Shown piece by piece: positions 8,629 to 44,735 of a stretch of DNA of 64,000 nucleotides. Source of the DNA: Azolla caroliniana (lineage: Eukaryota; Plantae; Polypodiophyta); contig JBHGNT010000005.1 in assembly GCA_043228905.1 (NCBI GenBank), positions 24,428,001 to 24,492,000 of the forward strand, given 5' to 3'. Made by a program: the position numbers and the translations under genes. The notes beneath the pieces are model-generated. The model saw nothing but the letters and a program-made list of their open reading frames with translations. It was not told the DNA's origin and did not search any database. Each line of letters begins with the position of its first letter. Within the stretch, counting starts at the first letter, position 1.

Positions 8629-8747
8629 GGCGAGTAAGAAGGGTTTGGGATTGGGGGAAGGAGGAAGGAGGAAGGAGGAACCCCCCAAAAAAACACGAGA
8701 AATCACAGAAATAATGAAGAAGTCATCTCTCTTTATCTCTATCTCTC

Positions 8748-8751
<4 letters not shown>

Positions 8752-11679: not shown

Positions 11680-14060
11680 TGTTGTGAGATTCCCAGCATG
11701 ATAAGTGTTAGAGTTATGGTCTAACGTAAGCATGAGATAAGGATACAATATAGATAAACATAAGAAAGAAGAGAGAGAAAGAAGGGTGTCGATCCACCCA
11801 ACCACCCCCGAGCGATGGGATCGAGATGGACTCGAGCCTTGATCAGCATCCCATACCACCGTCGTGGTGTCGAGTCGTACCTGTTGCTTGTGCGCTCGCT
11901 ACAAGAGTTGACCCACCACGAAACACAGTCTCAATGTAGTCAATATATGATCAAATGAGGGTAGTTAGGCCTCCTATTTATAGCGATACCCAAGGCCCCC
12001 AGGCAAGTTCACACTTGGCCTAATGGGTTGTCTCAATCATGAGGATTAAAAGTAATTCTCCCCTTCTTTACAATCTTGTTTAACCCTCACACTTATCCAT
12101 GTGTATAGAATACTACAGTAAATTCTCACCACGAGATATTATATGGTCATGCCTGTAACATACTCCCCCTCTTTAAAACATTGCACTCTTGCAATGAAAA
12201 GTTAGGGAAGTTAGTTCTAAGAGTATTTTCACGTTCCCATGTGGCATCTTTAATAGATTTATCTATCCCTTTAATTTTAAATTGTCAGATTATTTTAGTA
12301 CGCAGATTTTTTGTTTTAAAATCGAGAATTCTTTATGGTACATGTGGTTTAGAAGAAAATTCTTCAAAAGTAACCAGAGTTTCGATTGTAATTGTATTGT
12401 CGCTAGAACCTAGAAGTTCTTTTAGAAGAATTACATGAAAAACTGGATGAATTTCAATGCCATTAGGAACAACGAGATGATATGTTGATGAACCAATGCG
12501 TTTGAGGACTTGGAAAGGTCCACATAACGGTGGGGCTAACTTAGCGCACTTACCTGTAGACAATGTCTTAGAATTGTGAGGTACACGTAAAAATTCCTTC
12601 TGTCCAGGGTTGAATACACGAGGTTGCCTATTATGATCGGCGTAAAAACACACTCTATCTTGAGCTGTTTTTATATTATCTCGTGCAATATGCAACATAT
12701 CTTGCATATCCCGAAGAAAGTTTTGCGTACTTCGCATCTCATCATGATGTATATTAACATCAATCGGGGCTCGTGGTTGAAAACCATACATCAACATAAA
12801 AGGACTATATCCCATCGACGTATGCTTGGAGCTATTATAAGCAAACTCCAAATTTGGGAGATAACGTTCCCATTTTGTTGGTTTTGCATCAACTTATGCT
12901 CGAAGCATGTCCTCGATAATTTGATTTACTCGTTCTGTCTACCCATGAGATTGAGGATGATCCGTGGAGCTCATGCTCAATGTAGTTTCTAACTTCTTAA
13001 AGACTTGCGTCCAGAAGTCACTAGTAAACTTTGGATCTCGATCACTCACGATATCCATCGGTAACCCATAAAAACGAAATAACTCGTCAACGAATTGGTA
13101 ATCCAATCCAGGAGTTGTTATCGTGGTTTTAGTAGCAATAAATATGGCCATTTTAGTTACTTTATCAACCACAACCCAGATGGCATCATGGCCTTTTTGG
13201 GTGTGAGGAAGGTTAACAATAAAATCCATGGATATACTTTCCCACTTATTATTGGGAATGTCCAAGGGATGTAAAAGTCCTACGGCTTTAAGTCGCTTGA
13301 CTTTGTTAACCTGACATTGGTGACATTTAGTCACATAGCTATGTATGTCAGGACCCATCTTAGGCCAATAGAATTGAGCGGAGATGAGAAAGAGTGTACG
13401 ATGTATTCCAGGGTGCCCTACTAAGGGTGCATCACAACATTCAAACAAAATTCTCTTTTTGACCTCAGGCAAATCTGGAACACAGACCTTCCCATTACGG
13501 TAGAGCAGAACGTTAACAATGTGGAAGGATTCCTTCGAGGATGTGGTGGTGTCTATTCCAGACTCAACTCTTGCCCAATATATCACAAAATAACTGCCAT
13601 CAGGATACTTTCCTCGAAGGTGATCATAAAGATATGATGTTATTTCAGTGAAGCTAAGCATGTTAACTTCACGGATGCGACTTAGTGGATCAACGACAGT
13701 ATTCATGGAACCTTTACGATATCGTATGGAAAAATAAAAGTCCCGGATGAGATCAACCCATCGTGCCTTATGACCTTTCAGGTCTTCTTGGTCATAGAAA
13801 TATTTCAAGGACCCGTGGTACGTAGTTACCACAAAACGATTTCCATAAAGATAATGGCACCATGTTTTGAGCGCCATGTATAACTGCAAATAATTCCTTT
13901 TCTTGAACCATATACCGAGATTGAGCAGACTCAAGTTTCTTACTCTCGAATGCTATTGGTTTAGCATCTTGATATAAGACATCAACTATAGCATAATCGC
14001 TTGCATCAGTTTTAACCTCAAAAGTTTTTGAAGGATCGGCTAAAAGAAATGAAGGAGCCT
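11680..14060 (-). mobile_element. G1: 3' part of a degenerate Ty3/gypsy chromovirus (RNase H, integrase, chromodomain, PPT, 3' LTR ~11680-12160)
   Basis: FEVKTDASDYA, GHPG...CHQC, WESISMDFIV and GPF motifs; decayed chromodomain (DATWE) near 12240; PPT at 12161-12175 next to the LTR start TGTTACA. Several stops and frameshifts. Outer LTR end is approximate and the 5' half was not found. Confidence 0.8.
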
Positions 14061-17000
14061 TGCACACCAGGTGGGACCGCAGGGGCCCTGAACCGAGGAG
14101 CGTGAGAGATGAGAGGGAGAGAGACTCGCAGAAAACACAGAGATACAAAAATGAGAGAATCAAATCCAAATCAGTATAGATTACAGAGCTTGCAATGTTA
14201 CAACTGGCAAGCCGGTGACAGACTCAACACAGACGAATACACGCACTGAAATATGCAGTGGAGCCTCTACCAGAAGCACACAGGCTTTCACGTGGCAGAG
14301 GCAGCCAACTTAACCCAAAATCCATGTAGAAACAACAACGATGGTGGAGGAGAGAGCTCGGTTCCCAGTCCGACAACACTTCGTCCTCTCAAAACATGCG
14401 ATCCCCCCCTTTATAGCACAGGGAGAGAGAGCTGTTTACAGACCGTTAAATCACTGTTATTCTCTGCCCTTTTGGACAGAGATCCTCTTCGATTTCCTAC
14501 CTAACGAATTCGTGCTACCTAGGATAATTACATCGCCGACTTGTACTATCAAATATGTGCCCGTGTGTAAGGGCCGGTTCACGCACACTATCCACCAATT
14601 CCTCCTAGGGACAGTTTTCTCCACGACATCCGTCCCCACCTAGCCGCGCATACTCCGATATGTGCCAAAATAGCCTTCCGCCGGAGAAGACCGGCCCACG
14701 ATTATCTTTCGCTCTCCGGTTCGCCACCCGCTCCGCGCCGGTCATCGTCGCCATCCATGCCCTCTAGGTCCAGTTCGTCATCGTGCCTCTTCTTGAACGC
14801 TTTGATCCTCTTCCCGGCCACCAACACAACTATTCTCATTCCGTCGAGTTCCGCGAGGTGGTAGGTGCCGTTGTCGTTGGCGCTTGTCACCGCATAAGGT
14901 TCGAACCACCTCCTCACAAACTTTCGCATTGCCTTGTGCTAGTTGTCGAGGCTGTTGTCGTAGAGCAGAACCCAATCGCCTTCCTCGATTTTCCTCGGTC
15001 GTAGTCGGTGAGTCTAGTCGAATCTCCCCTTCTTCTTCGTCCTTGTTGCACATAGCTTCGCCGTTGCTCGTTCCACGTCCTCCGGTCTTCGCTCGAGTTG
15101 TCGGATCCACGCCGCTAACAACTCCTCCCGGCTCATCTCATCTCTCTAGTCCACCACGGCCCACGAGGAGATCGTTTTCTCCATCGGCATGATCGGCTTT
15201 TGCCCATACATAAGATCCATCGGCATGAACCTGGTTAACGAACTGTGTGTGGTTCGGTCTGCCCACAATGCGTAGGGTAGGAGTTGCGACCAATTCCCGA
15301 CTTGGCCTCCGCAGGCCCGTACCAACGCTTTTACGATTGGCCCGTGTCCGCGTTCCACCTTCCCGTTTGCCTCCGGATTGTACGCCGTGGTGAGCGAGAG
15401 TTTAACCCCTAGCCGTTCAAACAGCTCTTCGACCTCTTGTGCATCCAGTTCTCCACGGTCTACTATGATCTTTCCTCGATTAAGAACCGGCACACGGTCG
15501 TGGTCGTCTTGTTTGGTAATGCTCGACCCTCCACTTGGTTCGTCAAATCCTCTCGTGCCAGCACCAGGTATCGCATCTGCCCTACTCCCATCGGCATCGT
15601 CACAAGATCCACCATCCACTTGAAGTGGACGATCGGTGGGTAAGTCGGGTGCAACTCGTCCCGATGTCGGATTATGGAATGCATCTGACAACTTTCGCAA
15701 GTCGTTACAAACCGATGCACGTCCCGGTATAGTCCCGACCACCAGTACTTCTCCTTCAGCTTCTCGAACGTGGCCCATGTCCCCCGGTGTTCGGCCCAGG
15801 TACTCTCGTGGTACGCCGTTAGCAATGCTTCATGCTCCTCCTTCCTTGCCACCACTCGGAGTGGGACTCTGTCTCGCTTCTTCGGGTGCTTCCATATGCT
15901 TCTGTCCCGTAGAAAGAATCAGTACGCTTTCTTCTGGTCCGGTTAGCCTCTTCCCTTGTCCGCGCCGCTCCCGGCATCATCGTCTTCAGGAACCCACCGA
16001 TTTGGAGCCACTCCCTGTCGTACTTGCTCTCGTCGAACTCGTTAAGCACAAGAGTGCTCCCAGCCCTCGCCGCTATGTGAGCTGACTCGAGGAAGTCCTC
16101 ACCAACTTCTTCATTCTCCGAAACCATGTCGTCTTCGTCGTCGAACCGTGCTCTTGAAAGCATATCGGCCATGGGGTTGTCTTTACCGGAGATGTGTCGT
16201 ATCTCCGTATTTAGAGACTTGATGTACGCGATCCATCTGAGCATTGCCAGGTCCGGAGTCACACATCCGGAAACCGTACTGAGAATTGGTAGGCAGTCCG
16301 TCTCAATTATTACTTCCATCCCGATTAGATAGTCCTTGTCGGCCTTGACTGTCGAAACGATACCCCATAGTTCACGCTTGACTTGGGCGTATCCTCGTTG
16401 TCGCTCGCTCAATACCGTCGCCCCGAACCGGATCGGGAACCACGCGTCGCTCTCGTCCTCCTGATTGATCACCCATCCGATCCCGGTCGGGCTTGTGTCT
16501 ATGGTTACGTAGACGGGGACCTCCTTGCCGTAGACCGCTTTCCGGAGAGCCGGTGCCGCGGTAAGCGCCTCCTCCTTTAATCTCCGGACCGATTCCGTAT
16601 GTTCGTTACTCCATTCGAATTTTCGCCCTTTCTTTAGCAACTCGTAGAGCAGTTCCACGACATGTGCGTAGTGCGAGATCCAAATGTGATAGAATGCGCA
16701 TGCCCCCAGGAACCTCTGCACCTCCGTGACCGACTTGCATTCTTCCTTCATATCGGAGATGGTCTCTACCTTTGCCGGAGACGGTTTCCGGCTGTAAGGC
16801 CCGTATAGGTGACCGACCACAAGAATCTTTGACTGCCTGAAAGCCGACTTCTCTCCGGAGAGGGTGAGTCGCGCACCCTCTAGTCTTTGCAGTACTTTCT
16901 CGCAGTCGTCAATGTGGTGCACCACGAATCTCCGACATCTATCCGGCCCAACCATTTCATCCTTATCCTCCATCGGGCCCCCCTTTATCGGTATATCTTC

Positions 17001-17696
17001 CAGAAATGGCATGGTGATGTCTGGGATGCAGTCCCTCAGCACCTTGTTCATCGCATTCACCATGTGCGCCACTGAGTTTGTCCCTCCTTGCGGCAGGGTA
17101 CACATCCGCACTAAGCCGAGAGGTGTCTGCATCGTCGTGACATCCCTGCTCTCCTCGGCTAGTTGGAACTGGTTGTACCTGTTACCGATTAGGAACACGG
17201 TCTACAGTCAGTCCTTCGACCTAGACCTCAAAGTGACTGCGTTGCAACGAATGGTACCGCCGTACCGTAATATGTAATGGGATACCTCCCCGTATCCCAG
17301 TAGCGTATAAGGGAGACAACTACAACCGAACTCCTTAGACAATGCACTAGTAACAACACTCGCACTCACGCCTACGCTCTTACGATTACAATACGCCACC
17401 AAGAATCATAGAAACACAGTAGGTTAACCACAGATATGCACAGGGATTAGAGAAGATAGAACTCTATTAAGATAACGCTCTATGCATCAAAATTTACATG
17501 CTACCTCTTATAGAGGATTTCTGCCCTTTATATACATAGGGTCTTTTAGCCGTTCACGCTTCCCGCGTGAACCGTTACATGCGTTTGGTTTTTACTATAT
17601 TCTATATTTCTGCGCTCCTATCCGTCGGTTACTATTCCAACGGACAACACCTGGCACACATGTGGGACAGTGCCATGGCATGTCGGATCCACCCCT

Positions 17697-20330
17697 TTAA
17701 TCTTCCTCCAAAATGGCCTGAGTGTTTGGTTCCGCCCCGGTGTCCAGGTTCGGGGACGACGTAGTGTCCGTAGGCGCGTCATTGCGTGGTTCCAGTACTT
17801 GCTCGATAGGACTTTCCATGGTGCCGCTAGCTTCCTGTGTGGGCGGTCCGGGCTCCGCTGGATCATCCTGTTCTATTGTGGTTGGCGCAGTCGTCGGTGG
17901 GCTCTCGGTAGGTCGAGGTTCTGGTTCCTTCGAAACTTCCTCGATGGTGCCAACCGTAGTTGTACGCTCCGGTGAATGGGGCTGAGGTTCCTCCTGGTCA
18001 GTAGTCTCACTTTCTGGTATCGCGGGGGGCTCCTCTTGTTGTTCTGTGTTGCCCATCGTAGTGGTTAATTCCGATGACGTGGGCTGAGGTTCCTCTCGTT
18101 CGGCAGTATCCTTTAGTATCGCGATGGATTCCGCGTTAGGTCGCGTGCTGCCGGCTTGCATGATTTGGTGAAACAGGCCCTCCTGACTTTCGCCAAAATT
18201 GTCTAGTAGCTGCGCAAGTTCTTCGGAATGTTGGTCCGCTAGCGTGCGATAATCCTGCGCTAGGTCCTCGCATACTGTCGTAATGCTTTCCTCATTGAGT
18301 TTGTAGAATCCTCGGCCATCTTTTCTTCGGTTCTCCTAGTCCGCCCGGTACGTATGTAACTCCGCCACTTCTGTAGCCCACGCCATCCAGCATTTGTCTA
18401 ACGCCGCTTGTAATTGCGCCGTAAACCTCTCCCGATTTGTTTGGAGACATATGCGCACGTTGTCGGTTATTGCTTGGCAACGGTTGCGTGATTCTTCTAT
18501 GGTTTTCTTGAGGTTTTCGATTTCTTGTTTACTGACCGCCGCCGCTTCCTCATAATTGCTCCTCATTCCTGCCCATAGTTGAGATTCCTTCAAATGTAAT
18601 TCTTCCGGCTTTCCCATTTTATTGTTCAAGCGGATTTCGAGCTGATGCCTTTTGTCCTGTTCCCATACAAGCTGCTTGTCGAACCATGCTTTCTTCTTTT
18701 CCAATAACGCCCGAAGTCCCGTGATCGTTGTTTTCGATTTTTGCGCTTCCTCCCGTAGTTTGGTGTTTTCTTCTTTCGTACGGGTGTGTTGTGCTGCCTC
18801 CGCTACGAGTTTCTCTTCAATGGTCTTAACTGCCTTTTGGCCTTTGGCCCAGATGTCCGTTTCTCTGTCTGAGGAGTTCAGAGCGGAGGCGATCAATCTC
18901 CGATTCCACCAGTTGCATGACCCTTTTTGCTTTCGAGGCGATGGCGGTCTGTGCTTCAATATCTTTTCTTAGGGCCTCAACGGTGTTGTTTGTTGGTTGA
19001 GCTGCCTGCTGCATCGTAGTCGCGTTACGTTCCAACTCCGTGATGCGTTCGTTGGCCTTTTGTAGCTCAGCTTGGGTCAGTTTAACCGTTTTCCAAGCAT
19101 TTTTATTTTCAATCGCCATAGCCTTGGTGCCAATACTAACCTTAGCTAGTTCCCTATGAACCTCGATGAGGGTTGCGTTTAATGGGAGTAGTTCCATCCC
19201 CATTCGGCGTATGCTGACGTTTCGTTGTCTGCCAACTCTGGCTAGCTACTCCTCATCATCGCTTTTTGCTGTTTGTGTTAGCGCGCGCTCGATCATTTGT
19301 CGCTCCGCGTGCTCCTCGACCATTCGTCGGGAGACTTTTATTTGTTGTGTTGCCAAAAATTCCATGAGGTCAAAAGTAGTTCCGAACTGTAATAGGGCGC
19401 CGAACTCATGGGCCGTGTCTGGAATGTCCGGATACGCCAGGACCTCGCTTTCCGCCGTAAATACGCCTTTCCCCCACTGTGACTGGGCCAAAATAATCTG
19501 TTGTGGTTCCCGGATTACTTCGAAGGTGGTGTTGGGCTCCGTAGCTATGGAGTTGTCGACCACGGTGGTCGTCTCTGTGGTCGCGCGTGTGTCTTTAACT
19601 AATCCGTGCCCATCCTTCCCTTCCAGCCTCCGCCGTTTCGGCCTCGGGCTACCTTGATGTTGCTCGGCTTCCAGCTCCTCCGGAGCTTCCTCCCTATGCT
19701 CCGCCCGTTCCTCCTGTGTTGTTCGCGTGCTGGGCTGGGTTGATTGGGGTTCATCCTCCCATTCTATGGTGGCCAACTCCGCTAACCTTCGTCTCGTGGA
19801 ATGTGGCGACAGCATGGGTTTGTTGGGCTGTGGTGCGGGCAGTTCGCGGGGCAGAAATAGTATCGTCGGATATTGTTGTATGATTGGTCGTAGCTTTTTG
19901 CCGCCTTGAAACGCGTGCAGGCCTTCCCGCAACGCTGGTCTCTTAGTGAGCCCCCAATCAACCGTGCGCCTTGGGCATCCCAGAGGCATTTATATGCACG
20001 CATCCGACCTCCAACAGGAACTTGGCTATTTCGCGAAAGAAGGGGTCGGGGATTTCCTTCGTCTTGTATGCCTTGGCAGACGCCGAATAGGGCCCGAAAT
20101 ATCTCTGCAAAGTTTTCGCAGGAGGGATTTCGAAATGTCTTTCTCCCAGCGATGACAGGTCAAGCTTCTTCTGGATGGATGTGTTGGTGACCGTGTCGAT
20201 ATTCAGCTTCCTAGCAATGTCCAGGGCTTCAGGGTGAGGGGGTGCCTCAACGACTTTGATGTATCCATCCAGGCGTTTCTCGATGAGCCATCGACGCAAG
20301 GCGGTAGAAATAGGGATCAACATAGTAGGA
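17697..20330 (-). pseudogene. Extra 3' ORF of G3, broken by frameshifts: globular N-terminus, coiled coil, P/T/E-rich tail
   Basis: Consecutive same-strand ORFs 19958-20521, 19246-19989, 18826-19203, 18336-18959 and 17697-18161 lie between integrase and the 3' LTR, with heptad-like E/K/Q/L content. Confidence 0.6.
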
Positions 20331-22926
20331 GGGTGAGACTCGTGGCTAGTGGGCGAGGACTGCCGGCTATGGCGAACTCGAGCTCTGTGGTGGGATGGAG
20401 AAGAGGGTGAGTGAGGGTAGTGATGAGAGCAATGAGAGTTAGAAGGTTGGTTTCTGTACTGTGTAGAAAACCTTCTATTTTCTTCTTTTTGTGGCCTAGG
20501 GTTCATTGGTCGGTGATCCATCGTGGTGCCGTGTGTTCTTGGCGTAGAAGTTTGTGCATGCCTTAAGTCCTTTTAATAGCGTCGCTACCTTCTCTCTTTT
20601 TTTATTTTTTTATTTTATTTTTTTCATTTTGTAACGGTTACATACAATATTATTTTTACTCTATAGTACAAGTAGGTTTCTCTACTTACTCCGCGGATTC
20701 CCCGACTTTGTCATGTCCGGTGGGGAACGGGTTAGGTGACGTAGGTCCCAGGTAAGGTTTAAGGCGAAATCCATTCACCTTTTGTCGTAACACTTCCCCG
20801 GCCAAAGTGCCAAGTTGAAACGTGCCATGTTCCGCTCCCACTATCCAATACGGGCCCGTCCAACGGAATTTTAATTTTCCAACTATCCCATGCGTGTTTG
20901 AAAAACTAATACCGCTTTCCCAACCGTAAAATCCTTTTCACACGCATGTGATGTCGGTCCACGAATGCTTTGCGCCGCCGATGTTCCTGTTCCAATATGG
21001 CCATACTGCGTACCCTTGTTTCGCCTAGTTCTAGCAGTTGTTGTAGCCGTATTTGTTCGGATTTGCCCTCTAGCAGCCGGGCTCATACTTGAATCCGCAA
21101 ACTGGGTACCTGGAATTCGACGGGCATCACGGCCTCCGGCCCAAATGCTAGCCTAAAAGGCGTGGATTGTATGCTGGTCTTATAGCTGGTTCGATACGCC
21201 CATAATACACTGTGCAATTTGGTATCCCAATCTGTTCTATTCTCATTGACTATCTTTTTGAGGATAGTTTGTAATGTTTTGTTTGTGGCTTCGACCAAGC
21301 CATTTGCCTGTGGGTAATACGACGTACTCTTTTTGTGAACCACAACGTAGTGTTGGGTTAGCTCGCTAATGATTGTATTCAGAAAGTGACTCCCCTGGTC
21401 ACTAATGAGCTCAATAGGGCAGCCGAAATGACACTAGATGTGTTCGTAAAGGAATTTCGTCGTGACTGCCGCAATATTTTCGCGTAGTGGTTTCGCTTCT
21501 ACCCACTTGGTGCAGTAATCCGTAGCCACCAGGATATACTTATTGTCTGTTCGAGCAACTGTTAGGGTAAAGGGTCCCACAAAATCCAACCCCCACTTTC
21601 GGAAAGGATCCAACGGCAACACCGGTTGATGTGGCATTCTCGCGACCTCCGTGGGCTGGCCCAGCCGTTAGCATAAATCGCATTGTTTGCAATATTCATA
21701 CGCATCCTTTTGCGTAGTCAGCCACCAAAGTCCTGCTTGCCAGATTTTCCGGGCCGTAACATCGCATGCGTAATGTCCTCCCGTTGTACCACAGTGGGCT
21801 TCTCGTAAAACCGCAACCTTCTCATCCTGCCGTATTCTGTGCCTCCAGATGTCGTCACTACCTTTGTGATATAGGACGTCGTCGACTAAACATAAATTAT
21901 GACTCCGTACGACCAACCATTTTTTCTCGTCCGTCCTTAATTGGGGTGGCGGTAACCCCGTGGTCAGAAAGTAGGTCATTTCCATCAACCACCGATCCAG
22001 GAAAGTCTTTTCTGTTCTTTCTGCTAAAGTTGCTATACGCAGAATGTCCGCGTCCGGAAAGTCGTCGTCATCTTTTTGAGCCGTTTCTCCATTATCTAGT
22101 CTGCTCAAGAAATCCGCTACCATGTGTTGCATCCCCGGTTGGTGCTTAATTACAAAGTCGAATTCTAGGAGCAATAACATCCATCTGGCCAATTTTCCCG
22201 TCAGTGCCTGTTTCCCCACCAGATATAGCAATGCCGTATGATCCACATGAAACGTGAATTTCAACCCTAGCAAATAGTGCCAGAATTTATTGATGTTGTA
22301 GATCATACCCAACGCTTCACGTTCCGTTGTGGAGTAGTTACGCTGTCGTGAAGATTTCTGGCTATAGTGTGAAACCGGGGGTGGAATGGGCAAGTCGGTG
22401 GTGTGCAACATGTGCACATGTATACTAGGATAGGGTGTATAGAAAGAGAGGGGAAATTTTTGTCCCACATTGTAAGGTCCTTCCCTCCTTGGGCTATAAA
22501 AGGAAGGGAGGGGTCACTTATGAAGGGGTTGCCTATTTTGTGCGAGTAAGGTATACCACTTAGTCTAGGGTTCTCCCTCTTCCCATTTCGTTTTAGGGTT
22601 AGGGTTTCGGTTAGGGTTTTCTTCTTGGGTTTCCCTTTAGGGTTTTCGGATAGTCATTTTGGTGCGGCGATGGCGGCCACCACTGTTGTAACCGTTCGTT
22701 GTTTTAACATAACTTGTTGAACATCTTGCCTCCGCGGATCTCTCCTTCGATGTCGTGGTCTTATTCTTTCCTCTTCTCCTCTTGAGCTAAGCCTCCATAT
22801 CGTGTCCTATTCTTTCTCCTCCACTCCCTAGTCCAAGACCCCCGCGGTCCCGCCCCTTCTACATGCACGCGCGTAACAACGCGACATCTTTGGTGAACCC
22901 GACGTGAAGAAGGGCGGCAAGGGAGC

Positions 22927-23802
22927 ATGGAGATGGAAGAAGACTTGGACTTCGAGGAGATGATGGCAAAAATCGTGATGGAAGCCGGACGGAAGATGGC
23001 GAAGCGAGATGCGGCTCAACAAGCCGTCGAAAGGGTGGTTGATCGAGTCAGCCGATTCAACGGGGACGATGTCCCGAGGTTCTTGGAAGCGTACGAGGCC
23101 GAGATGGCGAAAGGGGGCGTGGACGAGGAGATGTGGCTAGAGTATTTTCCTCGAGTGGCGGCCGCATCGGTGCACAAGGAGGTCAAGGAGCTACGAGAAG
23201 CTCACGGGTCGTGGGTGTCCTTGAAGGTAGCCCTATTGGAAGCGTGCGGATACGCGAAACCGGAGTGGGTATGCCGGCAACCCGTTGGGGAGCGGTCGGC
23301 AACAACGTGGCTCGCGAGCGGCAGAGAAGAGAGAGTGGCGAGTGCGTACGCACTACCACCGGAAGAGAGCTCAACGCAAAACGGTTCGGAGGAGCTCGAC
23401 CTAGAAGCGCTAATACGAGAGGCATGCGAGCTTGTGAAGGCGAAAATCGGAGCTGAAGAAGGGCTTATTATGGAGTCGGGCCGGAGGCGATCGGAGGATA
23501 CGGAGGAAGAAGCCTCCCTAAGCGTAGAAGACGGGGCCTATACGGAGGCCAGAAGAGCGTACGACGGCGACATGGGAGAGGGTGCGGAGCAAGCGACCCT
23601 CTTGCCTTGCGGAGAAGGGACGACCATGGAGGCCGATAACTACGGATTCGGGACATGGCGGCCCGAAACATCGAGTGGGGAGGAGACAAGCGGCAGTGCC
23701 GGGTCCTTACCCACACCGGTTCTAGAGGCTTCGACGGTCGGCCCGAGAGCCGGTGTGAGACCTAGAGTGACGGACGGTGGCGGCGGCAAGGCGGGCAACT
23801 GA
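22927..23802 (+). CDS. Gag-like protein of G4 with an acidic repetitive tail
   Basis: AVERVVDRVSRFNGDDVPRFLEAY resembles the G2 gag segment AIEAIVNTIGRFDGKDAT; it starts just after the PBS. Confidence 0.65.
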   Translation: MEMEEDLDFEEMMAKIVMEAGRKMAKRDAAQQAVERVVDRVSRFNGDDVPRFLEAYEAEMAKGGVDEEMWLEYFPRVAAASVHKEVKELREAHGSWVSLKVALLEACGYAKPEWVCRQPVGERSATTWLASGREERVASAYALPPEESSTQNGSEELDLEALIREACELVKAKIGAEEGLIMESGRRRSEDTEEEASLSVEDGAYTEARRAYDGDMGEGAEQATLLPCGEGTTMEADNYGFGTWRPETSSGEETSGSAGSLPTPVLEASTVGPRAGVRPRVTDGGGGKAGN

Positions 23803-24448
23803 GACGACGGCATGGGAGAGATGGTGGCAAGCGTAATCGAGGCTTGCGGAATCGGAGATGGCGTAGCCGCGGACAACGACGACCGAACGGAAGCGGCTAC
23901 TGACACAACGAGTGGCGGTGCCGGGTCCTTACCCACACCGGTCCTAGAGGCTCCGGCGGCCGGCCCGAGTGCCGGCGTGAGACCTAGAGCGACGGGCGGT
24001 GGTGTCAGGAATAGTACTAAAACAGAGATTGAATTAGTACTAAGAAGAGTAGTACTATTAGTACTAAGAGGACGGGACTGCGTAAGATTCCCGAGAGAGA
24101 GGAAGTGAGAAGAGGAGAGAGAGAGAGAGAGGGAAATAGGATGATGACAGCAGCTCTTATATTATATGAAAGATAAGTACAAATCGACTAAGAGGCTTAA
24201 GACTGGTGTTGAACCAATTTGGTTCAACATAATGCTTAGTGCCTTCTTTTATAGTGTTCTCAGGAATAATCCTGAAGCTTCTAGAATGTTCCAGAGAAAT
24301 CTGGAATATACATTACTTTCTTATAATAAAACATAAATGAAAATAATATTCTATGAATTACAATAGATGGTGAGATGGTTAAGAGCTCGACCCATATACC
24401 ATAAGGTCATGGGTTCGAGTCTTGCCATCTCATGACACTATCTCCCCC

Positions 24449-27400
24449 TTAAAGACGACGAGTGGAACGAGTCAGCGCTACTTGCGGACCGGGTTTGTCC
24501 GGATACTTTCGGTGGAAATCAGCAAGAAGATCTTGTGCATTGGCAACATTCTCGACGGGTTCCCAAGTACGTTCGCTCGGACTATAACCGAGCCAATCGA
24601 CCAAGTAATAGAGTTTGTTGCGAACAAGTTTGGAATCGAGGATGGCAGCAACTTCGTACTCCGGGCCGGCGTCCAACTCCAGTGGGGGCGGCGGTGGTGT
24701 CACGCGATCGGGAATGGTGTTTGCTTGATAGGGTTCAAGAAGAGAACAATGGAAAACCGGATGTATCTGAAGCTGCGGAGGGAGATCAAGGCGGAAGGTG
24801 ACATCATTAATCTTCCCCGTAATACGGAAAGGACCGAGTCGTCGATAATCCAACTTGTCGCACGGTCGAGTAGTCTTGATGTGACGACGTAAGAGCCATA
24901 CTCGATCTCCGATGGCAAAAGAGGAGGGAATCCGATGACGATCCGCATAAGTCTTCTGTGTGTGTTGAGCATGACGAAGGTGAGTAGAGAGATCCATCTG
25001 GATCTTGCGTAGCCTCTCCAAATGATCCTCGGCACGAGGGTTGGTAGGTAGCTCCGGAGTGTCGATCACCGACCAGCGAGGATGGAAACCGGTATAAGCG
25101 AAAAATGGGGAGACCCGAGTCGAGGAGTGAATAGCATTATTATACGCAAACTCTGCAAAGTGGAGAATCTCGGCCCAATCGTCCTGTTGATAACTCAGGA
25201 AACACCGGAGATATTGCTCCAGCGTTTGGTTTGTTCGTTCCGCCTGTCCGTCGGTCTGAGGATGGTAGCCGGAGGAGAGGTTGCAGGAGACCTTGAGCAT
25301 CTTGAAGAGATGCTGCCAAAATTTGGAGACAAATTGCGGGCCTCGGTCACTGATAATACTGTCTGGGAGGCCATGATGCCGAAAAACCTCACGCATAACA
25401 AGAGCGGCGGTTTCCTCGCTAGTGATGGCTTTAGTACATGGCACAAAATGTGCCATCTTCGTATATCGATCGACGACGGTTAGGATAGCATCGAACCCTT
25501 TCGAGACCGGCAGATCTGTGATAAAATCAAGACAAATAGACTGCCATGGCTTACTTGGAATTGGTAAAGGTTCCAACAAGCCATATGGATGGTGTCGTGG
25601 CATCTTTGCTCGGCAGCAAGCATCACAGGTCCGAACGTAGTCGTCGACAAAACGGCGCATGTGGGGCCACCAAAAAGATCGCTGCACTAGCTCCAACGTC
25701 TTAGTACTACCGAAATGTCCCGCCGTATGGGTGTCGTGACAATGTTGGACAATTTGAAGGCGACAGGAGCAATCGGGGACATATACACGCTTTTTAAAGA
25801 ATAACAAACCATCATGATATTCGAATTGTCGGTAGTCAATACCTGGTTGTTGAGACTGAGAACAGGATGCCCGAGAAGTATCAATGTGCGCCAGGATGTC
25901 TTGAGCAAAACTATCCGTCTTCAAGGTTGCACGTATGCCATCAGTAATCCGTGAATCCATCGGGGTGTGAAAAATCCGCGTCGTGTGCAATCGTGTTGGT
26001 CCCAAGATTACTTGCTTTTGATTATCAAATGTTGCTTCACCAGGACGAGGTGCAAGATATGAACGTCGTGATAGTGCATCTGCTTTTCCTTGCTGCTTCC
26101 CCGGTCGATATGTGATTTTGAAGTCGAAACGCGTGAGGAATTGCGCCCACCGAGCTTGCCGTCGATTTAGTACGCGAGCGTTCTGAAAATAAGCAAGATT
26201 TTTATGATCGCTGAAGACAATGACCTGATGTGGAGAGCCCTCTAAGAAATGCCGCCATTGTACAAATGAATCCACGATGGCTAATAACTCCTTGTCATGT
26301 ATTTCGTAGTTGATTTCTGCGACATCGAATTTGCGCGAATGGAAAGCCACCGGATGCAACTCTTCTTTATCACCTTGTTGAGAAAGGATGCTACCGAGGG
26401 CGAAATCTGATGCGTCGGCCTCCATGATGAATGGTTTGCTTGTATCCACATGAGCTAGAATCGGTGCTGATGTAAAGGCTTTCTTAAGATGCCGAAAAGC
26501 CATATCTGCTTCAATGGACCAAAGAAATGCTTGGCCCTTCTTCGTAAGTTGTGTGAGAGGTAAAATAATCTTCGAGTAATCCTGTATAAACTTACGGTAG
26601 AAGTTAGCAAAACCTAGAAAACATTGTACATCTCGTACCGACCGTGGAATTTGCCACTCTAGTACAGTTTGGATCTTAGCTGGATCCATGGCGATGCCCT
26701 TTGAGGAGATGACGTAGCCTAGAAATTCCACTTGCTTGCAGTCAAAGCTACATTTTTCTAGCTTGGCATAAAGACCATTCTCGCGGAGTCGCTTTAGTAC
26801 TAATAGTACATGAGAGTCGTGCTCTTCCTGGGTCTTCGAATAAATCAACAGATCATCCAGATAAATGATCAAACAGATATCCAAGAGGTCTCTGAATATA
26901 TCATTTGCCATGTGTTGGAAGACTGCGGGTGCATTGGTTAGGCCAAACGGCATAACAGTATACTCAAAATGCCCATACCGCGTGCGAAAAGCGGTCTTCC
27001 ACTCATCTCCCGGTCGGATCCGCACGAGATTATACGCTCCGCGTAGGTCGATTTTAGTAAAAAACTTGGCACCATTAACTCGCTCTAAAAGACTTGATAT
27101 AAGAGGAAGTGCATACCTATTCCGGATGGTGACTTTATTTAATCCGCGGTAATCAACGACAAGACGAAGTGAGCCATCTTTCTTCTTGACAAAGAAGATG
27201 GGTGCACCGGCCGGAGATTTCGAATGACGGATGAACCCGCTTGCCAAGTTCTCCTCTATGTAGGCTCGAAGGACTTCTAACTCGGTGGGTGACAGGTTGT
27301 AAATTGGTCCCCATGGTGGCTCGGTTCCTGGTTGTAAATCGATGGGACAGTCATAGGGACGGTGATGAGGAAGGGTACCGGCTTTTACCTTGTCAAATAC

Positions 27401-28021
27401 ATCGGCATAGGGATGATATTTTGCCGGAAGTTGTACTGAGGAGTCCTTCTTAATAGTGCTGGAAGGATGTACTGATATGGAAAATAGGAACATTGCCTCC
27501 TTGGGTCCTTCTTCGCGTAGTTGATGGAGTGAAATGGTCGAAACTCGGCGAGTTGATTCTTGGGGTGGTCGATATCGGACTTCTCTTGTTCTCCAATCTA
27601 TGGCTGGATTATGTAACTCAAGCCAAGGTAATCCTAGGACAATGGGATGCTCTGGACTACTAATTATATTAAATGATATTATACACACAAAACTACCTAG
27701 GACAACTTGAATGGGTTCTGATTCTTCTACAATATTCCCGGAAGCAATGGGACGACCATCAATGACCACTACAGATGCGGGACAAGGAAGTTTTCTTAAG
27801 GATATCTGAGAAGCTTGGGCAAAATTTCGATCCATGAAACAGGAATTAGCTCCGGAATCTAAAAGTGCTAGGACGGGTACTGGGGGAGTACTTTTAGTAC
27901 TAACAATGACTTGGGCTAGGAACACATTGCTAACTTGCTTGGAAGGAATGGAACCACTAATGGGCTGTACAGATCTAGGGCTGCTGTCCAACCAAATGGC
28001 TCCTATTTTGGCTGGACTCAA
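24449..28021 (-). CDS. G5 Pol: protease, RT, RNase H, integrase, chromodomain; probably made by -1 frameshift
   Basis: [27 protein letters not shown]...[24 protein letters not shown], and chromodomain YEVAAILDS...YLVDWLGY...TWEP. The ORF opens at TTG, not ATG. Confidence 0.95.
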
Positions 28022-29176
28022 TCGTTTAACTCTTCATCTAATTGACTAAGGATTTCAAATTTATTTGAGATACTTGGGCTATTAGTACTATGAATACTAT
28101 CTGACACTCTATTAGTACTATTACTACTATCAGACACTCCGAAGGGAAGAATTGACTCAGGTTTAGTACAGGCGACAATTTGATTTACCTGTCTTCTTGG
28201 CCTATGGGGACAATTGATGGCGATATGTCCTGGTCCACCGCAATAAAGGCATAATCGATTGGCACGTCGTCGTTGCTTTTCTTCTTCCGATAACGGGCCG
28301 CGTCGACGCATGGTATCGATCTCCATCGGTGTCGAAGTATTTGCTTGAGGTATGTCTCGTGCAAACGGTTTAGCCGCGACTGCGGCGTAAGTGGGCTCTG
28401 GCCTAGAGCGTGGTATCTGTAATTGACGTTCTGAACGCCGTTCAAAAAAGGCGGTTGTCACATCGAACTGCTCGACTGATTGCCTCCGTAAGAGACTTTG
28501 GTTCTTTGGGGAAAGTTAGAAGTAGATCTTTGACATCGTTTCGCAAGCCATAGCGAAACTGCTCCATTAGTGCTTGATCATCCCAGGGTATATCTGAAGC
28601 AAGTAGGCGGAAATCCGCCGCGTAGGCAGAGGCTGGACGATCGCCTTGACGCAATCGCCGGATCTTGTTGATCGCCGTCCTGATGCTGTCGGTGTCTCCA
28701 AAGCAGGCTTTAAACTCACCAATAAAATCTTCAAAGTTATTAAGCAAGGGCGATTGTTTTTCTAGAAGCGGAGCGAACCATGCCAAGGCTGATCCGCTAA
28801 GTAGCGTGCCTATTAGGCCGACTCGAGATGCATCAGTGGGATATCGGGAAGGATGCATCTGGATGACTAAGCGTACCTGATTAAGGAATCCCCGAAATTG
28901 CGAACGCGTTCCATCAAATTTCACAGGAAGTCCAATCTTGGGCTCTTTATGAAATCCTTGGGGACTGGATCCTTGTTGTTGCAACGCTGCTTCGAGTTGT
29001 TGTACCCGTAACGCTAACTCCCCATGTTGTTGTTGCGTTTGTTGTTTTTCTAGAGCGATTTGTTGCAGATCCCCTATCAGCCGTTGGTTTTCTTGTTCCA
29101 AGGCAACAAACTTTTCTTTTAGGCACTGTAGCTCGGAGAAAACGGATTGGTATTCTTGGGCGCTAACAGTAGCCAT
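28018..29176 (-). CDS. G5 Gag in two frames (28442-29176 and 28018-28461)
   Basis: Coiled-coil N-terminus, KFDG..QFRGF, LRQG...YAADF capsid motif, PMEID and CCHC knuckle [15 protein letters not shown] +1 frame break lies in a T run at ~28445. Confidence 0.85.
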
Positions 29177-39277: not shown

Positions 39278-42200
39278 CGCTCAACCGTTGATAGTTTCCG
39301 ACTAGCATAGTACACTGGTCGGTACCAATTCGGCTCCGTGAGCTGCATCAACACACTACCTATTGCTATATCTGAGGCATCCATGAACACGTGAAATGGT
39401 TTTGCCCATACTGGTGGCTGTACGATTTGTGCCTGCGTTAGCATTATTTTTAGCGCATCATACGCCTTCTCTTCCGTTATTTTCCATTTGCAAGGAGTAT
39501 GGTGAATGGCGGCATGTAATGGTGTGGCGAAATCCGCCAAATAGCGTATCATCTGGCTGTGCCATTGTATTTGTCCCAGTAACCGACTTAGTGCTTTCGT
39601 GTTTGTTGGTATTTTTGCGTGGGTGATTGCAGGGATTTTGTTCGGATAGACCGTTATCCCCTCCTTACTGACTAATTGGCTGAGGAGAGCCCCATTGGTG
39701 ACGTTGAAGGCGCATTTGGCGAGAGTCAGGCTTAAGCGTGCAGTTCGGCAACGCTCCAAGCAAAGTTGTAGATGCGTAAAATGGTCGGCTACTGTCCCAT
39801 ATACCGCAAAATCATGTAAAAAGACCTACATGAAGGCAAGTATATATTCCCCAAAAATCTCCGTGATTGTCCGCTAGAATGTAGAGAGCTCCGTCTTTAG
39901 CCCAAACATCATGATGACCGCGACATAAACTCCCCAGTCCGTGACAAACGTCGTCTTCTCTTGGTCATCAGGGTGCATGCGTACTTGATTGTACCCACTG
40001 AAGCCATCTAGAAAGTTGTACATGTCATGCCCTGCGACGACATCCAGTGAAAGGTAAAGGGAACGCGTATGTGATGGTTACGACGTTCAATTTCCGGTAG
40101 TCCACGCATATCCGTATTTTGCCATTTTTCTTTGGTACGATTACTATCGGGCTTAGCCATGTAGCGTGTTTTACTAATCGAATGAATCCGGCCTTGAGCA
40201 GTTTGTCAATTTCTTCTTTTACGCAGGCCGCGTAATTTGGGTTCATGCGATATCGATACTATTGGACCGGTTTCGCATCGGTCGCTAAATTGATCTTATG
40301 TTGATAGAACTTTGGATCTAATCCCTTCATGTCATCGTGGGACCAAGCAAACACATCTTTATACTTCTTGAGTAGTGCTATCATCGCTTCTCTATTATCC
40401 GATAATAATTCTTTTGCCATGGAGAGAAATCGGGGGTGTGACACCGTACCCATGTTTATTTCTTCTAGGGCTGAGGCTGCGACTTGTCGTGAAATTTCCA
40501 TTTCCCTCTCGAACGCAGCCCGTGCTCTGATTAATTCTAATATTGACTCTGGGTCTAGTTCGTAAGCCTCGTCGTGGAGCGTAGTGGGCGTGGTGTACTC
40601 CGCCGCGGTTTCTATGACGTCGATTCAAATAGTGGAATGATCTGGGGGTGCTCGTCTAGGTATACTTCTAATTTTGTATCATCCACCCCAGCCAACATAT
40701 TTATATTTCCCACGTATAACGGTGTTATGCCCTTGGGTTGTGCCGCCATTTCCTTTGTGGGTACGTGAACCTTGGTGAGTCTGCGTCGAAAGCTGATGCA
40801 TTTATGTTGCCAGCTTTGTTTGATATTCACTGAACGAAGCCACGGTCTGCCAAGCAGCATAGGGTACGCTCCTAGGGCATCGAGGGCGAGGACCACCGTT
40901 GAGACGTCGAAGTGGTGTCCGCCAACGATAATACCTAACTTGTGTATTAAGCCTAAAGGCCGTACTGAGTGGGTATCCGCCATGCGAAGCCAAAACGGGC
41001 AAGCTTCCCGTTCTGAAATTCCCAATTGTTCGCATGTCTTCGTGCTAATTACATTGATGCCAGAGCCATCGTCGATTATGCATCTTGTGATTGCCTGACC
41101 GTGTAATATCAACTTAATAGCCGGATTATGGTGATCCACCATTGTTGGTCTGGCGCTGGTGTCTGTAAAGTTGGCGGAGACGCTTACCCCAGGTTTGCCT
41201 GTTATGCGATCCTCCATGGCCTGGTGGAACCGTGGGACTAGTTGAAGTAGCTTCTCCATGGTCAGTGTTATCTCGCAACTTGCCAGTGCTTGCCATAGAG
41301 GATCCGGAGATATCACCTCTTCCGCTAAGGGCTCCACATTGTTCGCGGACTCCTACCGCATGCGTTCCGTATTTGCCGCGTTCGTTTTTTTGACCCATGC
41401 TTGGTCCGTCTGACGTATCTCATCTTGCGTGGCCCAATCCACATTTTTTGTTTGTTGTCTTGTCGTGACTTGCTAAACTTCCGCCATAATCGTATTGACG
41501 GCGGACCCCTTGCCCTTGCGTAGTGGACATTGCGTGGCATAATGTTCGGGTTGTTGGCAAACGAAACAATGGACACTAGATTCGCCTTTCTCGGTAGTTG
41601 GTGGCGTGTTCCGATCCCCAGGTGTGACTTGCTCCTCCCGATCTTGGTTCGTTCTTCTGAGCGTTCGTGGTGGTGGTTGTTGGTCCCGGCGCAACTCCTA
41701 GTGCCGGTCATCGTCTGAACTTTCGTCATACCGCCGTTGGTCCCGATATTGACGATGTTTCCTGCGAGGCCCATTGAAGCCGCCACGTTTGTTCATTAGA
41801 CGGTAATTCTCGTAGCGTCGGCCTCCTTCATTATATCTGTGGTTGCCTTAGTAGTCTTAGTCCTCCAGCTCTTCTTCCTCAAAATCGTTGTTATTCCGGC
41901 GATTTCGGTAGTGCCGGTCATCGATGGGTTCTGATCCGTATACCGGGGTCGTTCTTCGTGGCGCCTTTGCTCATTACGGTGAGGTGGGCGTTGTGTTTCC
42001 ACGCTTCGTACTGTGGGGTTGGATATGTTCACCATATTGTACTCACACTGCTCGACCATGTGTGCTTTTGAGTGACAGATTGGGCAGTGGATTCGCATGT
42101 TGCATTCCACTGTAGAATGCCTCGAATTGAGACAAATTGTGCACTGGATTGCCTGGCAAAAATGTCATTCCTCGTCCTTAGGTAATGCTTGCCGTAATGA

Positions 42201-44735
42201 GGACATGGAAAACCTTTCCTCTTCTTTGTTCAGCTCTAGCTGTAGCGCTCGTTCTATGACCATATCAGTTGTTTCTCCTTATACACTATTGTTGTTGAGC
42301 GTCGTCTGTATCGGTCGTCGTAAAGATGCCAGAAATGTCTCCCGAGCCTCGTCCTCTATCGAGCCCCATTCTAATTTCCGCCGTAGACTTTGGAGGCATA
42401 AACTAAAATCCGCTACAATCTCGGCCAACAGGTGAGCGGGAAATCGTCTTTGTCCCACAAGGCATGCCAAAAGTGTTACCGATTAGGAACACGGTCTACA
42501 GTCAGTCCTTCTACCTAGACCTCAAAGTGACTGCGTTGCAACGAATTGTACCATCGTATTGTAATACGTAATGGGATACCTCCCCGTATCCTAGTAGCGT
42601 ATAAGGGAGACGGCTACAACCGAACTCCTTCGACACTGCACTAGTAACAACACTCGCACTCACGCCTACGCTCTTATGATTACAATACGCCACCAACAAT
42701 CACAGAAACACAATAGGTTAACCATAGATATGCACATGGATCAGAGAAGATAGAACTCTATTAAGATAACGCTCTATGCATCAAAATTTACACGCTACCT
42801 CTTACAGAGGATTTCTGCCCTTTATATACATAGGGTCTTTTAGTCGTTCACACTTCCCGTGTGAACTGTTACATGCGTTTCGTTTTTACTATATTCTATA
42901 TTTCTACGCTCCTGTCCGTTGGTTACTATTCTGGCGAACAACAGTACCCCGAGTATAGATCCCCGACCGAATAGATCGACCTCCCGGCAAAGGCCTTTGC
43001 AAACTTGTCGATTGTCGGTCCGACTCCTACATTCCGAATGGTCACTTTATTGACTGGCTACAGGTTCTGAATGAAGCGCAACATGTCGTTCTTCTTAGGC
43101 ACAGTAAACCACTGATTCGAGTATGGGGCACTCGACGGTTCGAGGATGCCCATCTCCACCTTCTGGTTTAGCAGCTCCATCAACTTCGGGATGTGAGCTT
43201 TGGGTATTGGCATCGGTTTGAGATTCCACGGCACATGCGGTAGCATAAAAATAAGCATCGGCTCAACGACCGTTGGGTCCACTTACCCAATCTCTTCCTG
43301 TGCCTCCCGAGCATTCTCCGAAATTGTTCCTCCTCCGCCGGTAGTAGGAAATGGTATAGGTGTGGGGATCCTCCGGGGTGTCCGGACTATCGTGGCCCCA
43401 CGCCTTGATAGCCCTCTCTAAAAATCCCCTCGCCTTTCGCCGCCGAGGGTCTCGTGGTTGCGGTCATGGTTCGGCCGCACGGTCAGGAATTGGATGGAGT
43501 GTCGTCCATATTGGCTCTTTACGCGTGCGTACGCCGAATCGTTATCTAGCACTTTCGTCTCCATACGCGTTGCCGTAATGTATGGTTCTCCGGGTATCAC
43601 CGGATGTGAGGATGTCTCCTGCACGAAGAAGTGTTGGTCGATCTCGACATCACCGATTTTCACCCGCACATTCGGGCAAGCCCCATGTAGCTCCTTCGTG
43701 GCGTGCGTCGCCGCTTGTATTTTCCACCCGTGCTTGGTGTTGATCGGCCACTTGCCTTTCTTCTAGAAGTCCATAGACATCAGGTTGATCTCCGAACCGT
43801 GGTCTACTAATGCCACCATCGGCTCCTGGACGTCCCCGATCCTAACCGGGGTCTCCGTAGTGGCTCTTGCCCAGTGCAACTTTGAATAGTGGCTTTCCGC
43901 CAACTTGTCTTCCAGGGCCATGTCTTGTAGGTGCGTCGTTCACACCTCCACCGGCCTCTCCGGCTTCGTCTCCGTCGAAAGTCTTTTTCGCTTCACCAAG
44001 TCCACGATGGAGTCATGGAATTCTTTCTTGGCAATCCCAAGCACTTCCCTTAGCGTCAACTCCACCTTGTTGTCGAGGATTCGTTCCTCAAGGACCTTTC
44101 GCAGGTCCGTTGTTCTTTCTATCTCGGTGCTCAACCGATAACCGGCTTTCTTTACTTTATCCGGTGTGCCGGCAGCACCGGTGTCATTTTGCTTCGGCCT
44201 GAACCAGGTCTCGTACCGCTGCGAGGGTTTGGCCCCTCCGGCCTTTCCCGCATGCTTGTCTTCTACCAGAACCTCGTAGTTCTGGCACGCGGCTTCCACA
44301 AAGCCGATCTTTTCTTTGACCGGATCGCTCCACCCAGTGACCTCTCGGACCCGTCTTTCCACACGGTCCGCTTCTTCCCTTCTCAACCACATGCTGACGA
44401 GGCCTTCTAGCACCACTGGCCAGAACCCGGAGTCTTTCATCTTCTGGCCTTCGTCATTGCCAACCCGGATTCCTATCGACGTCGTCGCTTCTTCCATCAG
44501 TCTCTTCATTCCTCCCCGTCCGATATTCAGCTCCAAGGCTCTCCAGGTCTCACTAGCGTGCACCCTCCCGTTCCATAGGTACACCACATGAGCCCTTATT
44601 GCTTCTTCGAAGTCCATGCAGTCCTTCTAGACGTGACCGACCGTGTCACACCACAAGCACCGATGCCCACCCAGAGGCCTTCAGTCGCGGGGCTACTCGT
44701 CGTCGTCCCTCCTTGCTTGTGCAATCTGGAGGTCT

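What the first reader, a model, noticed from the sequence alone, without database searches (positions are those of the whole stretch)
17650..17700. G3 has an inverted tRNA-Arg PBS-like sequence where the PPT should be: possible tRNA-primed plus strand or RNA circularisation
Seen: the 5' LTR is followed by PBS TGGCATGCCTTGTGGGAC (42452-42469, -). At the other end, 2 nt inside the 3' LTR boundary, the opposite strand reads TGGCACACATGTGGGAC (17652-17668, +). The element RNA therefore reads ...GUCCCACAUGUGUGCCA-GG-[LTR], mimicking a tRNA 3' end including CCA. No purine tract abuts the LTR; the nearest (AAAGGGGTGGA) is ~38 nt away. Known: plus strands are normally primed by an adjacent PPT, and TGGCACGCCC(A/G)GTGGGAC is the tRNA-Arg PBS of Ogre/Tat-type elements. 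Inference: a second tRNA may prime on minus-strand cDNA, or the two RNA ends may pair, or a tRNA-mimic fragment may act as primer. I know of no description of this arrangement. The match is imperfect and this copy is old.
Basis: partly seen in the sequence, partly recalled or inferred. Interest (0 to 1): 0.75.

Follow-up and report, generated by a model that had tools for sequence, protein, structure and literature searches.

The report
Retrotransposon with tRNA site replacing PPT
A family of plant jumping genes has no purine tract next to its right-hand terminal repeat and carries a conserved copy of a tRNA's 3' end there instead, so a second host tRNA likely starts the second DNA strand, which would be an exception to how such elements are known to copy themselves.

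Summary
G3 is an old (LTRs 93% alike), minus-strand Ty3/gypsy element with a 5-bp TSD. The inverted PBS-like 17-mer sits 2 nt inside its 3' LTR, with no purine tract adjacent. Eight more 3' junctions, found with an LTR-only pattern, all carry the motif's start at the same 2-nt offset; 7 of 8 keep the 17-mer, in LTRs as little as about 60% alike. Most other copies are closer to the PBS than G3 is, though none restores the 18th base. The match extends to a tRNA T-arm-like 10-mer beyond a looped-out 13-14 nt hairpin. In one subfamily the site keeps tRNA-like bases that the subfamily's PBS has lost, favouring a tRNA as partner over the PBS. Best reading (about 0.5, inferred): a host tRNA primes plus-strand DNA on the minus-strand cDNA. 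Main rivals: an element-encoded tRNA-mimic primer, or the conserved G-tract 38 nt upstream acting as an offset PPT. No priming data exist, the host tRNA was not retrieved, and 'Arg' is recalled. Nine literature searches found no description. This scan reported the same arrangement five times on other pieces of this genome.

The parts
17175..17179 (.). Target-site duplication GTACC (left); repeated at 42944-42948
17180..17649 (-). 3' LTR (470 nt, TG...CA); U3 begins TGTTGTCC at 17649
17650..17651 (-). 2-nt spacer (GG in element sense) between the tRNA-like CCA and the LTR; GG in 8 of 9 junctions, AG in 1
17652..17668 (+). Inverted PBS-like 17-mer: complementary to a tRNA 3' end on the minus-strand cDNA; reads as tRNA nt 59-76 less one base in the element RNA
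17669..17682 (.). 13-14 nt palindromic insert (small hairpin) at the position of tRNA nt 58/59; predicted to loop out when a tRNA arm binds
17683..17692 (-). T-arm-like 10-mer (GTGGATCCGA in G3; GTGGGTCCGA in L002, L006, L009, L011), matching tRNA nt 49-58; overlaps the G-tract
17688..17698 (-). Purine/G tract AAAGGGGTGGA, 38 nt before the LTR; candidate offset or relic PPT
17697..20572 (-). Broken extra ORF(s) in sense orientation after pol, with no Pfam family; homologous ORFs in L002, L005, L006, L008, L009, L011, L012
21083..22343 (-). RNase H end and integrase (broken); interrupted upstream by nested elements at 22344-33583 and 33590-39278
39279..42356 (-). gag-protease-RT-RNase H start (broken); 71% DNA identity to L004
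42452..42469 (-). PBS TGGCATGCCTTGTGGGAC, 4 nt from the 5' LTR
42474..42943 (-). 5' LTR

Best explanation
G3 belongs to a plant Ty3/gypsy family that has a conserved inverted tRNA-binding site instead of a polypurine tract next to its 3' LTR, and a second host tRNA likely anneals there on the minus-strand cDNA and primes the plus strand. Shown: the site, its fixed 2-nt offset, its conservation and the absence of an adjacent purine tract. Inferred steps: (1) a tRNA primes minus-strand DNA at the PBS as usual; (2) after strand transfer, RNase H bares the cDNA just past U3; (3) the same kind of tRNA pairs with the 17-nt site, with one tRNA base bulged, and in most copies also with a 10-nt T-arm segment once a 13-14 nt hairpin loops out; (4) RT extends from the tRNA's CCA through GG into U3-R-U5; (5) RNase H removes the tRNA at the CCA/DNA junction, leaving the 2 extra bases that integrase would trim before CA.
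For: Position: TGGCA starts exactly 2 nt from the LTR in 9 of 9 junctions (G3 plus 8 of the 12 loci; the other 4 are outer LTR ends with unrelated flanks). The search pattern lay wholly inside the LTR. Conservation: the CCA-proximal 8 nt average 94% pairwise identity, against 58% for U3 beyond the pattern and 58-60% for the 60 nt further upstream. Whole LTRs of L006, L009 and L010 are 59-61% alike to G3's. In public contigs from 3 studies, 90-99% of summed depth reads G at 17658 and 84-89% reads C at 17660, both towards the PBS. tRNA nature: a 23-letter pattern built on the block falls inside an ARAGORN tRNA in 22 of 24 hits. Co-folding with one such tRNA arm gives a two-part duplex with the hairpin looped out, clearest in G3, L002, L005, L006, L009 and L011. 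The 10-mer has at most 1 mismatch in 4 of 9 junctions (shuffle p 0.001-0.003) and 2 in G3 (p 0.011). Its one constant mismatch is a U:G wobble in a tRNA:cDNA duplex. Partner test: L004's LTR is 93% alike to L010's, yet L004's PBS leaves the tRNA-like sequence after 14 nt while L010's 3' site keeps GTGGGAC. Controls: 5 of 5 other two-LTR elements in the window have a G-run within a few bases of the 3' LTR. Split tRNA binding with an internal loop is known for the Ty1 PBS (PMC5371799, section 2.1 read).
Against: No biochemical or cDNA-end data. The host tRNA was not retrieved: the proxy was a viral tRNA-Arg(TCT) arm, and only 3 of the 22 tRNAs with this arm are Arg. Every intact site lacks one base, and its middle 2 nt vary (53% identity), with a mismatch there in 4 of 9. 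GTGGGAC is exact in only 6 of 9, and L008 has lost it. The T-arm segment is poor in L005 and L012 (3 mismatches, p about 0.11) and in L008, and is cut by the contig end in L010. The co-fold beat shuffles (at most 13 of 300) in only 5 of 9. A G-tract stays at a fixed 38 nt, and its extra G's are not explained by the tRNA match. The 8 loci come from one series of related assemblies, and L006 and L009 are identical in the block, so they are not independent lineages.
Confidence: 0.5

Rival explanations
1. The element's own RNA supplies the primer: the tRNA-like piece survives RNase H, is cut after CCA and is extended, acting as a non-purine PPT.
For: The RNA reads as tRNA nt 49-76 ending CCA-GG-LTR. 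The GTGGG/CCCAC stem forms in the predicted folds of L002, L006 and L009. The geometry is the same 2-nt offset, and no outside primer is needed.
Against: The G3 block folds no better than shuffles (z 0.06), and the predicted folds differ between copies. The insert destroys the T loop. A change at 17692 that breaks the T-stem but would be a wobble with a tRNA is carried by 26-41% of depth. Known plus-strand primers are purine-rich (PMC5371799, passages).
Confidence: 0.16
2. The G-tract 38 nt upstream is the real PPT; the cDNA end carries 38 extra bases that are trimmed, and the tRNA-like block has another role or is a fixed relic of a captured primer.
For: A G-rich tract sits at this distance in most junctions. 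It resembles the adjacent PPT of nested element B (AGTGGGGGTGGA). The PBS end also has a longer gap than usual (4 nt).
Against: The LTR start is normally set by the primer's 3' end. The G3 5' LTR and 4 of 4 outer ends carry none of the 38 nt, so integration would have to remove 38 bases, which I know no case of (own knowledge). The most conserved unselected part is the CCA-proximal 8 nt (94%), not the tract (71%). Five G's/T of the tract double as the tRNA T-stem.
Confidence: 0.15
3. The block pairs with the element's own PBS, either circularising the RNA or letting the 3' end of the finished minus-strand DNA fold back and self-prime the plus strand.
For: G3's site pairs with G3's PBS over 16 bp (-25.3 kcal/mol), and L010's site pairs with L004's PBS over 11 terminal bp plus some more (-22.3). 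5'-3' bridging is known in Ty3 and Drosophila gypsy (PMC5371799, PMC1635307, passages).
Against: In the L004/L010 subfamily the PBS has lost GTGGGAC but the 3' site keeps it, so the site does not follow the PBS. The T-arm-like 10-mer has no partner at the PBS. Pairing alone explains neither the missing PPT nor the 2-nt offset, and fold-back needs an extra DNA nick. The PBS and the 3' site come from different contigs, linked only by LTR likeness.
Confidence: 0.12
4. The block is a transcription-factor or integrase-recognition element (GGNCCCAC-like and CACG-like motifs, recalled as common in plant promoters), and the tRNA likeness is incidental.
For: The block holds three TGGCAC-like repeats and a palindrome. 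The adjacent U3 end is also conserved.
Against: It matches the PBS-type sequence in register up to CCA, at a fixed 2 nt from the LTR, and plus-strand priming would still need a site.
Confidence: 0.07

Closest known systems
Canonical Ty3/gypsy replication (yeast Ty3; PMC5371799, passages and section 2.1 read)
   Same: LTRs with TG...CA ends, tRNA-primed minus strand, gag-PR-RT-RH-INT order; split tRNA binding is known (Ty1 internal loop, Ty3 5'/3' bipartite PBS).
   Different: Ty3's plus strand starts at a purine PPT just upstream of U3. Ty3's 3' PBS segment is complementary to tRNA on the RNA strand; the G3 site has the opposite polarity and can bind tRNA only on the cDNA.
Drosophila gypsy with two tRNA-Lys2 binding sites (PMC1635307, passages)
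   Same: A second tRNA-related site near the 3' end of the genome.
   Different: The gypsy site binds the anticodon/TPsiC stems on the RNA, bridges the RNA ends and is not needed for cDNA synthesis, and the figure legend still shows a PPT. The G3 site is a sense copy of the tRNA 3' end at the PPT position.
Plant non-chromovirus Ty3/gypsy: Athila, Tat/Ogre/Retand, Phygy, Selgy (PMC6317226 passages and Additional file 5; ATHILAfinder 10.64898/2026.03.20.713144, passages)
   Same: 5-bp TSD, extra ORFs after pol, no chromodomain detected, a few bases between LTR and PBS (3-6 bp in ATHILA). An Arg PBS is typical of Ogre, TatIII and part of Retand. The nearest named RT-RH proteins are from Riccia and Adiantum at 47-56% identity.
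   Different: No archaeal RNase H detected, so not Tat. Brassicaceae ATHILA have a conserved PPT-LTR junction (97%) and an Asp/Asn PBS. Phygy and Selgy have 4-bp TSDs.
Helenus TRIMs with tRNA-like sequence (PMC10886601, passages)
   Same: tRNA-derived sequence inside an LTR element.
   Different: In Helenus it lies within the LTR as a Pol III promoter, both PBS and PPT are kept, and the author excludes a priming role.

Membership tests
Ty3/gypsy LTR retrotransposon | Two direct LTRs with TG...CA ends and a TSD | tested here: met
Ty3/gypsy LTR retrotransposon | Domain order PR-RT-RH-INT | tested here: met
   (L004 has RT-RH-INT start in one frame)
Ty3/gypsy LTR retrotransposon | tRNA PBS after the 5' LTR | tested here: met
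   tRNA-arm nature; identity of the tRNA recalled
Ty3/gypsy LTR retrotransposon | PPT adjacent to the 3' LTR | tested here: not met
   0 of 9 junctions; 6-7 purines in nt -14 to -3
Tat (TatI-III, Ogre, Retand) | Archaeal RNase H domain | tested here: not met
   No such Pfam hit in G3 ORFs; RH and integrase zinc finger lie in one ORF; full polyproteins P0003 and P0007 list none
Athila | Asp/Asn PBS and conserved PPT-LTR junction | tested here: not met
   PBS differs from TGGCGCCGTTGCC given; no adjacent PPT
Athila / OTA | Placement in an RT-RH-INT tree with reference elements | not tested
   No labelled reference sequences were available (the reference FASTA supplement is too large to read)
Phygy / Selgy | 4-bp TSD, Trp or Ala PBS | tested here: not met
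   5-bp TSD GTACC
tRNA-primed plus strand (proposed) | tRNA covalently joined to plus-strand strong-stop DNA | not testable with these tools
   needs cDNA from particles

The most novel reading that the evidence does not exclude
A lineage of Ty3/gypsy elements in a probably non-seed plant has dropped the polypurine tract and primes both DNA strands with host tRNA, the second through a split site on the cDNA (17 nt, hairpin, 10 nt) that mirrors a PBS with its auxiliary T-arm contact.
Probability: 0.5. Interest if true: 0.88.

Novelty: new variant of a known kind. Interest (0 to 1): 0.72.

Why it matters
The reviews read here treat tRNA-for-minus and PPT-for-plus priming as the general rule for retroviruses and LTR retrotransposons. 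A high-copy natural family that primes its plus strand another way would break that rule. It would show that RT and RNase H can start plus strands without a purine tract, and offer a route by which priming signals evolve. It would also explain elements that annotation tools miss or mis-orient because they expect a PPT. Even under the two leading rivals (a tRNA-mimic RNA primer, or a 38-base trimmed cDNA end) the mechanism would be unusual, and mapping cDNA ends tells the three apart.

Tried and rejected
No whole genome is held, and the metagenome loci could not be opened as genomes, so there was no genome-wide count and no host tRNA. No tRNA gene lies in the window and Rfam found none in L001-L012. 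No RNA holder was listed among the sequencing runs. A motif scan of viral and bacterial collections gave 3 hits: L013 was read and lies in unrelated sequence; L014 and L015 are bacterial MAG records that I did not read. All three were dropped as chance. Protein scans of viral contigs gave none or only distant RTs of 40% identity or less. Eight of those 70 (L040-L047) were checked and hold neither the motif nor internal LTR pairs; 62 were not examined. A plasmid search gave one distant hit. The extra ORF has no Pfam family and no convincing Atlas hit. A stable tRNA-like fold of the G3 block was rejected. A similar hairpin followed by a 5-nt T-loop match downstream of the L004/L007 PBS is too short to count. 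Neighbouring host element H is unrelated (23% identity). Literature: 9 searches found no description of an inverted PBS at the PPT position or of tRNA-primed plus strands. Most listed papers were seen only as listings, subscription papers are not covered, and the largest supplements of PMC6317226 (per-element PBS table, FASTA) and the supplements of the bioRxiv preprint could not be read and might bear on lineage or precedent.

Full report
Anatomy. G3 runs from 17180 to 42943 on the minus strand. Its LTRs are 470 nt, 93% alike (K2P 0.075), and are flanked by the TSD GTACC. Two nested insertions (22344-33583 and 33590-39278) split pol; without them the element is about 8.8 kb. The remaining ORFs are broken but show protease, RT-linked RNase H and integrase zinc-finger domains in gypsy order, followed by about 2.9 kb of sense extra ORF without a Pfam family. 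No archaeal RNase H or chromodomain was detected. The nearest named RT-RH proteins are from the liverwort Riccia and the fern Adiantum at 47-56% identity, so the host is probably a non-seed plant (inference). The lineage was not placed in a tree.

The observation. The 17-mer at 17652-17668 (+) lies 2 nt inside the 3' LTR, and the PBS at 42452-42469 (-) lies 4 nt from the 5' LTR. A pattern covering both occurs only at these two places in 64 kb, and in none of 100 shuffles (the pattern was written from the sites). The nearest purine tract ends 38 nt before the LTR. The five other two-LTR elements of the window each have a G-run within a few bases of their 3' LTR, with 10-12 purines in 14 nt against 8 scattered ones in G3.

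Other copies. No genome is held. Public contigs from four runs (three samples, three studies) were laid on the junction. Of summed depth, 90-99% reads G at 17658 and 84-89% reads C at 17660, both towards the PBS; no insertion in the 17-mer is among the 12 best-supported indels shown, with 13 more hidden. Summed depth is not copy number, and 234 substitution rows were hidden. A pattern lying wholly inside the LTR returned 12 metagenome loci. Eight are internal/3' LTR junctions and four are outer LTR ends with unrelated flanks. Counting G3, TGGCA starts exactly 2 nt from the LTR in 9 of 9; TGGCACGC is exact in 7 of 9, the other two differing by one transition at the CpG; GTGGGAC is exact in 6 of 9; L008 has deleted it; no site has 18 nt; none has an adjacent purine tract. 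The CCA-proximal 8 nt average 94% pairwise identity, the rest of the block 69-71% with L008 included, the two middle bases 53%, and flanking U3 and upstream sequence 58-60%. Whole LTRs of L006, L009 and L010 are 59-61% alike to G3's. These loci come from one series of related assemblies and are not independent lineages.

A 23-letter pattern made from these pieces, with T-loop letters that I recalled, falls inside an ARAGORN tRNA in 22 of 24 viral hits, of mixed identity with 3 Arg(TCT). The block is therefore a tRNA T arm plus acceptor strand; the Arg label remains recalled. The insert falls between nt 58 and 59, the usual edge of an 18-nt PBS (own knowledge). Co-folded with one of these arms (RNA parameters, a proxy), the cDNA strand pairs in two parts with the insert looped out as a hairpin. 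This beat shuffles of the upstream part in 5 of 9 junctions (6-13 of 300) and not in L008, L010, L011 or L012. The 10-mer has at most one mismatch in 4 of 9 (p 0.001-0.003) and two in G3 (p 0.011), and is poor in the rest. Much of the apparent purine tract is this T-stem strand, but three or more further G's stay conserved beyond it.

Which partner? G3's own PBS is a full 18-mer and pairs with its 3' site at -25.3 kcal/mol, so G3 alone cannot separate tRNA from PBS. Most copies laid at the 5' end leave G3's sequence within the PBS. The PBSs of L004 and L007 follow the tRNA-like sequence for 14 nt and then diverge. L004's LTR is 93% alike to L010's, and L010's 3' site keeps GTGGGAC, which L004's PBS lacks; their duplex is -22.3 against -31.7 with a full-length PBS. 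The 3' site thus follows the tRNA-like sequence, not the subfamily's PBS. The two are on different contigs, so this link is by LTR likeness only.

Mechanism. The polarity means a tRNA cannot bind the RNA here but can bind the minus-strand cDNA, with its 3' end pointing at the LTR and stopping two bases short of TG. That is the place and offset where a PPT primer normally ends (own knowledge; PMC5371799, passages, places the PPT just upstream of U3). I put tRNA priming of the plus strand at 0.5, an element-encoded tRNA-mimic primer at 0.16, an offset PPT at 0.15, pairing with the element's own PBS at 0.12 and an unrelated role at 0.07. All steps after the sequence facts are inferred.

Known systems. 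Ty1 and Ty3 use split PBSs, and Drosophila gypsy has a second tRNA site near its 3' end, but those sites are complementary to tRNA on the RNA and concern minus-strand priming or RNA bridging (PMC5371799 passages and section 2.1; PMC1635307 passages). Helenus carries tRNA-like sequence in its LTR and keeps its PPT (PMC10886601 passages). ATHILA has a conserved PPT junction and a 3-6 bp gap before the PBS (preprint passages). An Arg PBS is typical of Ogre, TatIII and some Retand, which all have an archaeal RNase H (PMC6317226 passages and Additional file 5). PMC11963269 and PMC11042837 (passages) added only the general rule and that Tf1 cDNA ends can keep primer copies. Nine searches found no description of this arrangement; coverage is limited to open-licence papers.

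Earlier notes. Five unreviewed notes of this scan report the same arrangement on other pieces of this genome. They are not independent evidence; the counts above are my own.

Verdict. A real, conserved, family-wide feature of a Ty3/gypsy element, with a plausible but unproven new way of priming the plus strand. New variant of a known kind; interest 0.72.

Noticed in passing
window 22344-33583 (+): Nested element B has a 4-bp TSD ACGC (fits the NCGN motif given for Phygy), a PBS starting TGGTGAACCCG (recalled as tRNA-Trp type) 4 nt after the LTR, an adjacent PPT, and two ORFs without Pfam families. It looks like a non-autonomous Phygy-like element. Its 3' LTR is split by an inverted-repeat insertion at about 32185-33131.
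   Followed up: partly
window 24003-29680 (-): Chromovirus with 100% identical LTRs, a chromodomain and no TGG-type PBS; likely a very young self-priming Tcn1-type element.
   Followed up: partly
window 14060-14100: A third, weaker match (TTGCACACCAGGTGGGAC, +) lies where the host element H meets a different gypsy fragment. On the minus strand it reads like a tRNA 3' arm with a small hairpin before it. It may be chance, coding sequence or an LTR end.
   Followed up: no
window about 14627-17174 and 42949-44626 (-): Host element H, into which G3 inserted, carries DUF4100, is only 23% alike in RT-RH, and appears to have an ordinary G-rich tract (AGGTGGGGACGGA) before TGTCGTGG at about 14628-14640; its LTR limits were not confirmed.
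   Followed up: partly
run X12, record 9: One contig from a related organism has the LTR end and a G3-like PBS followed directly by sequence resembling the U3 start, as a tandem or circle-junction arrangement would give. Single contig.
   Followed up: no
L004:4290-4340 and L007:550-615: After 14 PBS bases these copies carry a 6-bp hairpin and then a 5-nt match to a tRNA T loop, a faint parallel to the split 3' site.
   Followed up: partly
window 7489-8748 (-): F-box/kelch-type plant gene; a 48-nt tandem repeat lies at about 1347-2340.
   Followed up: no
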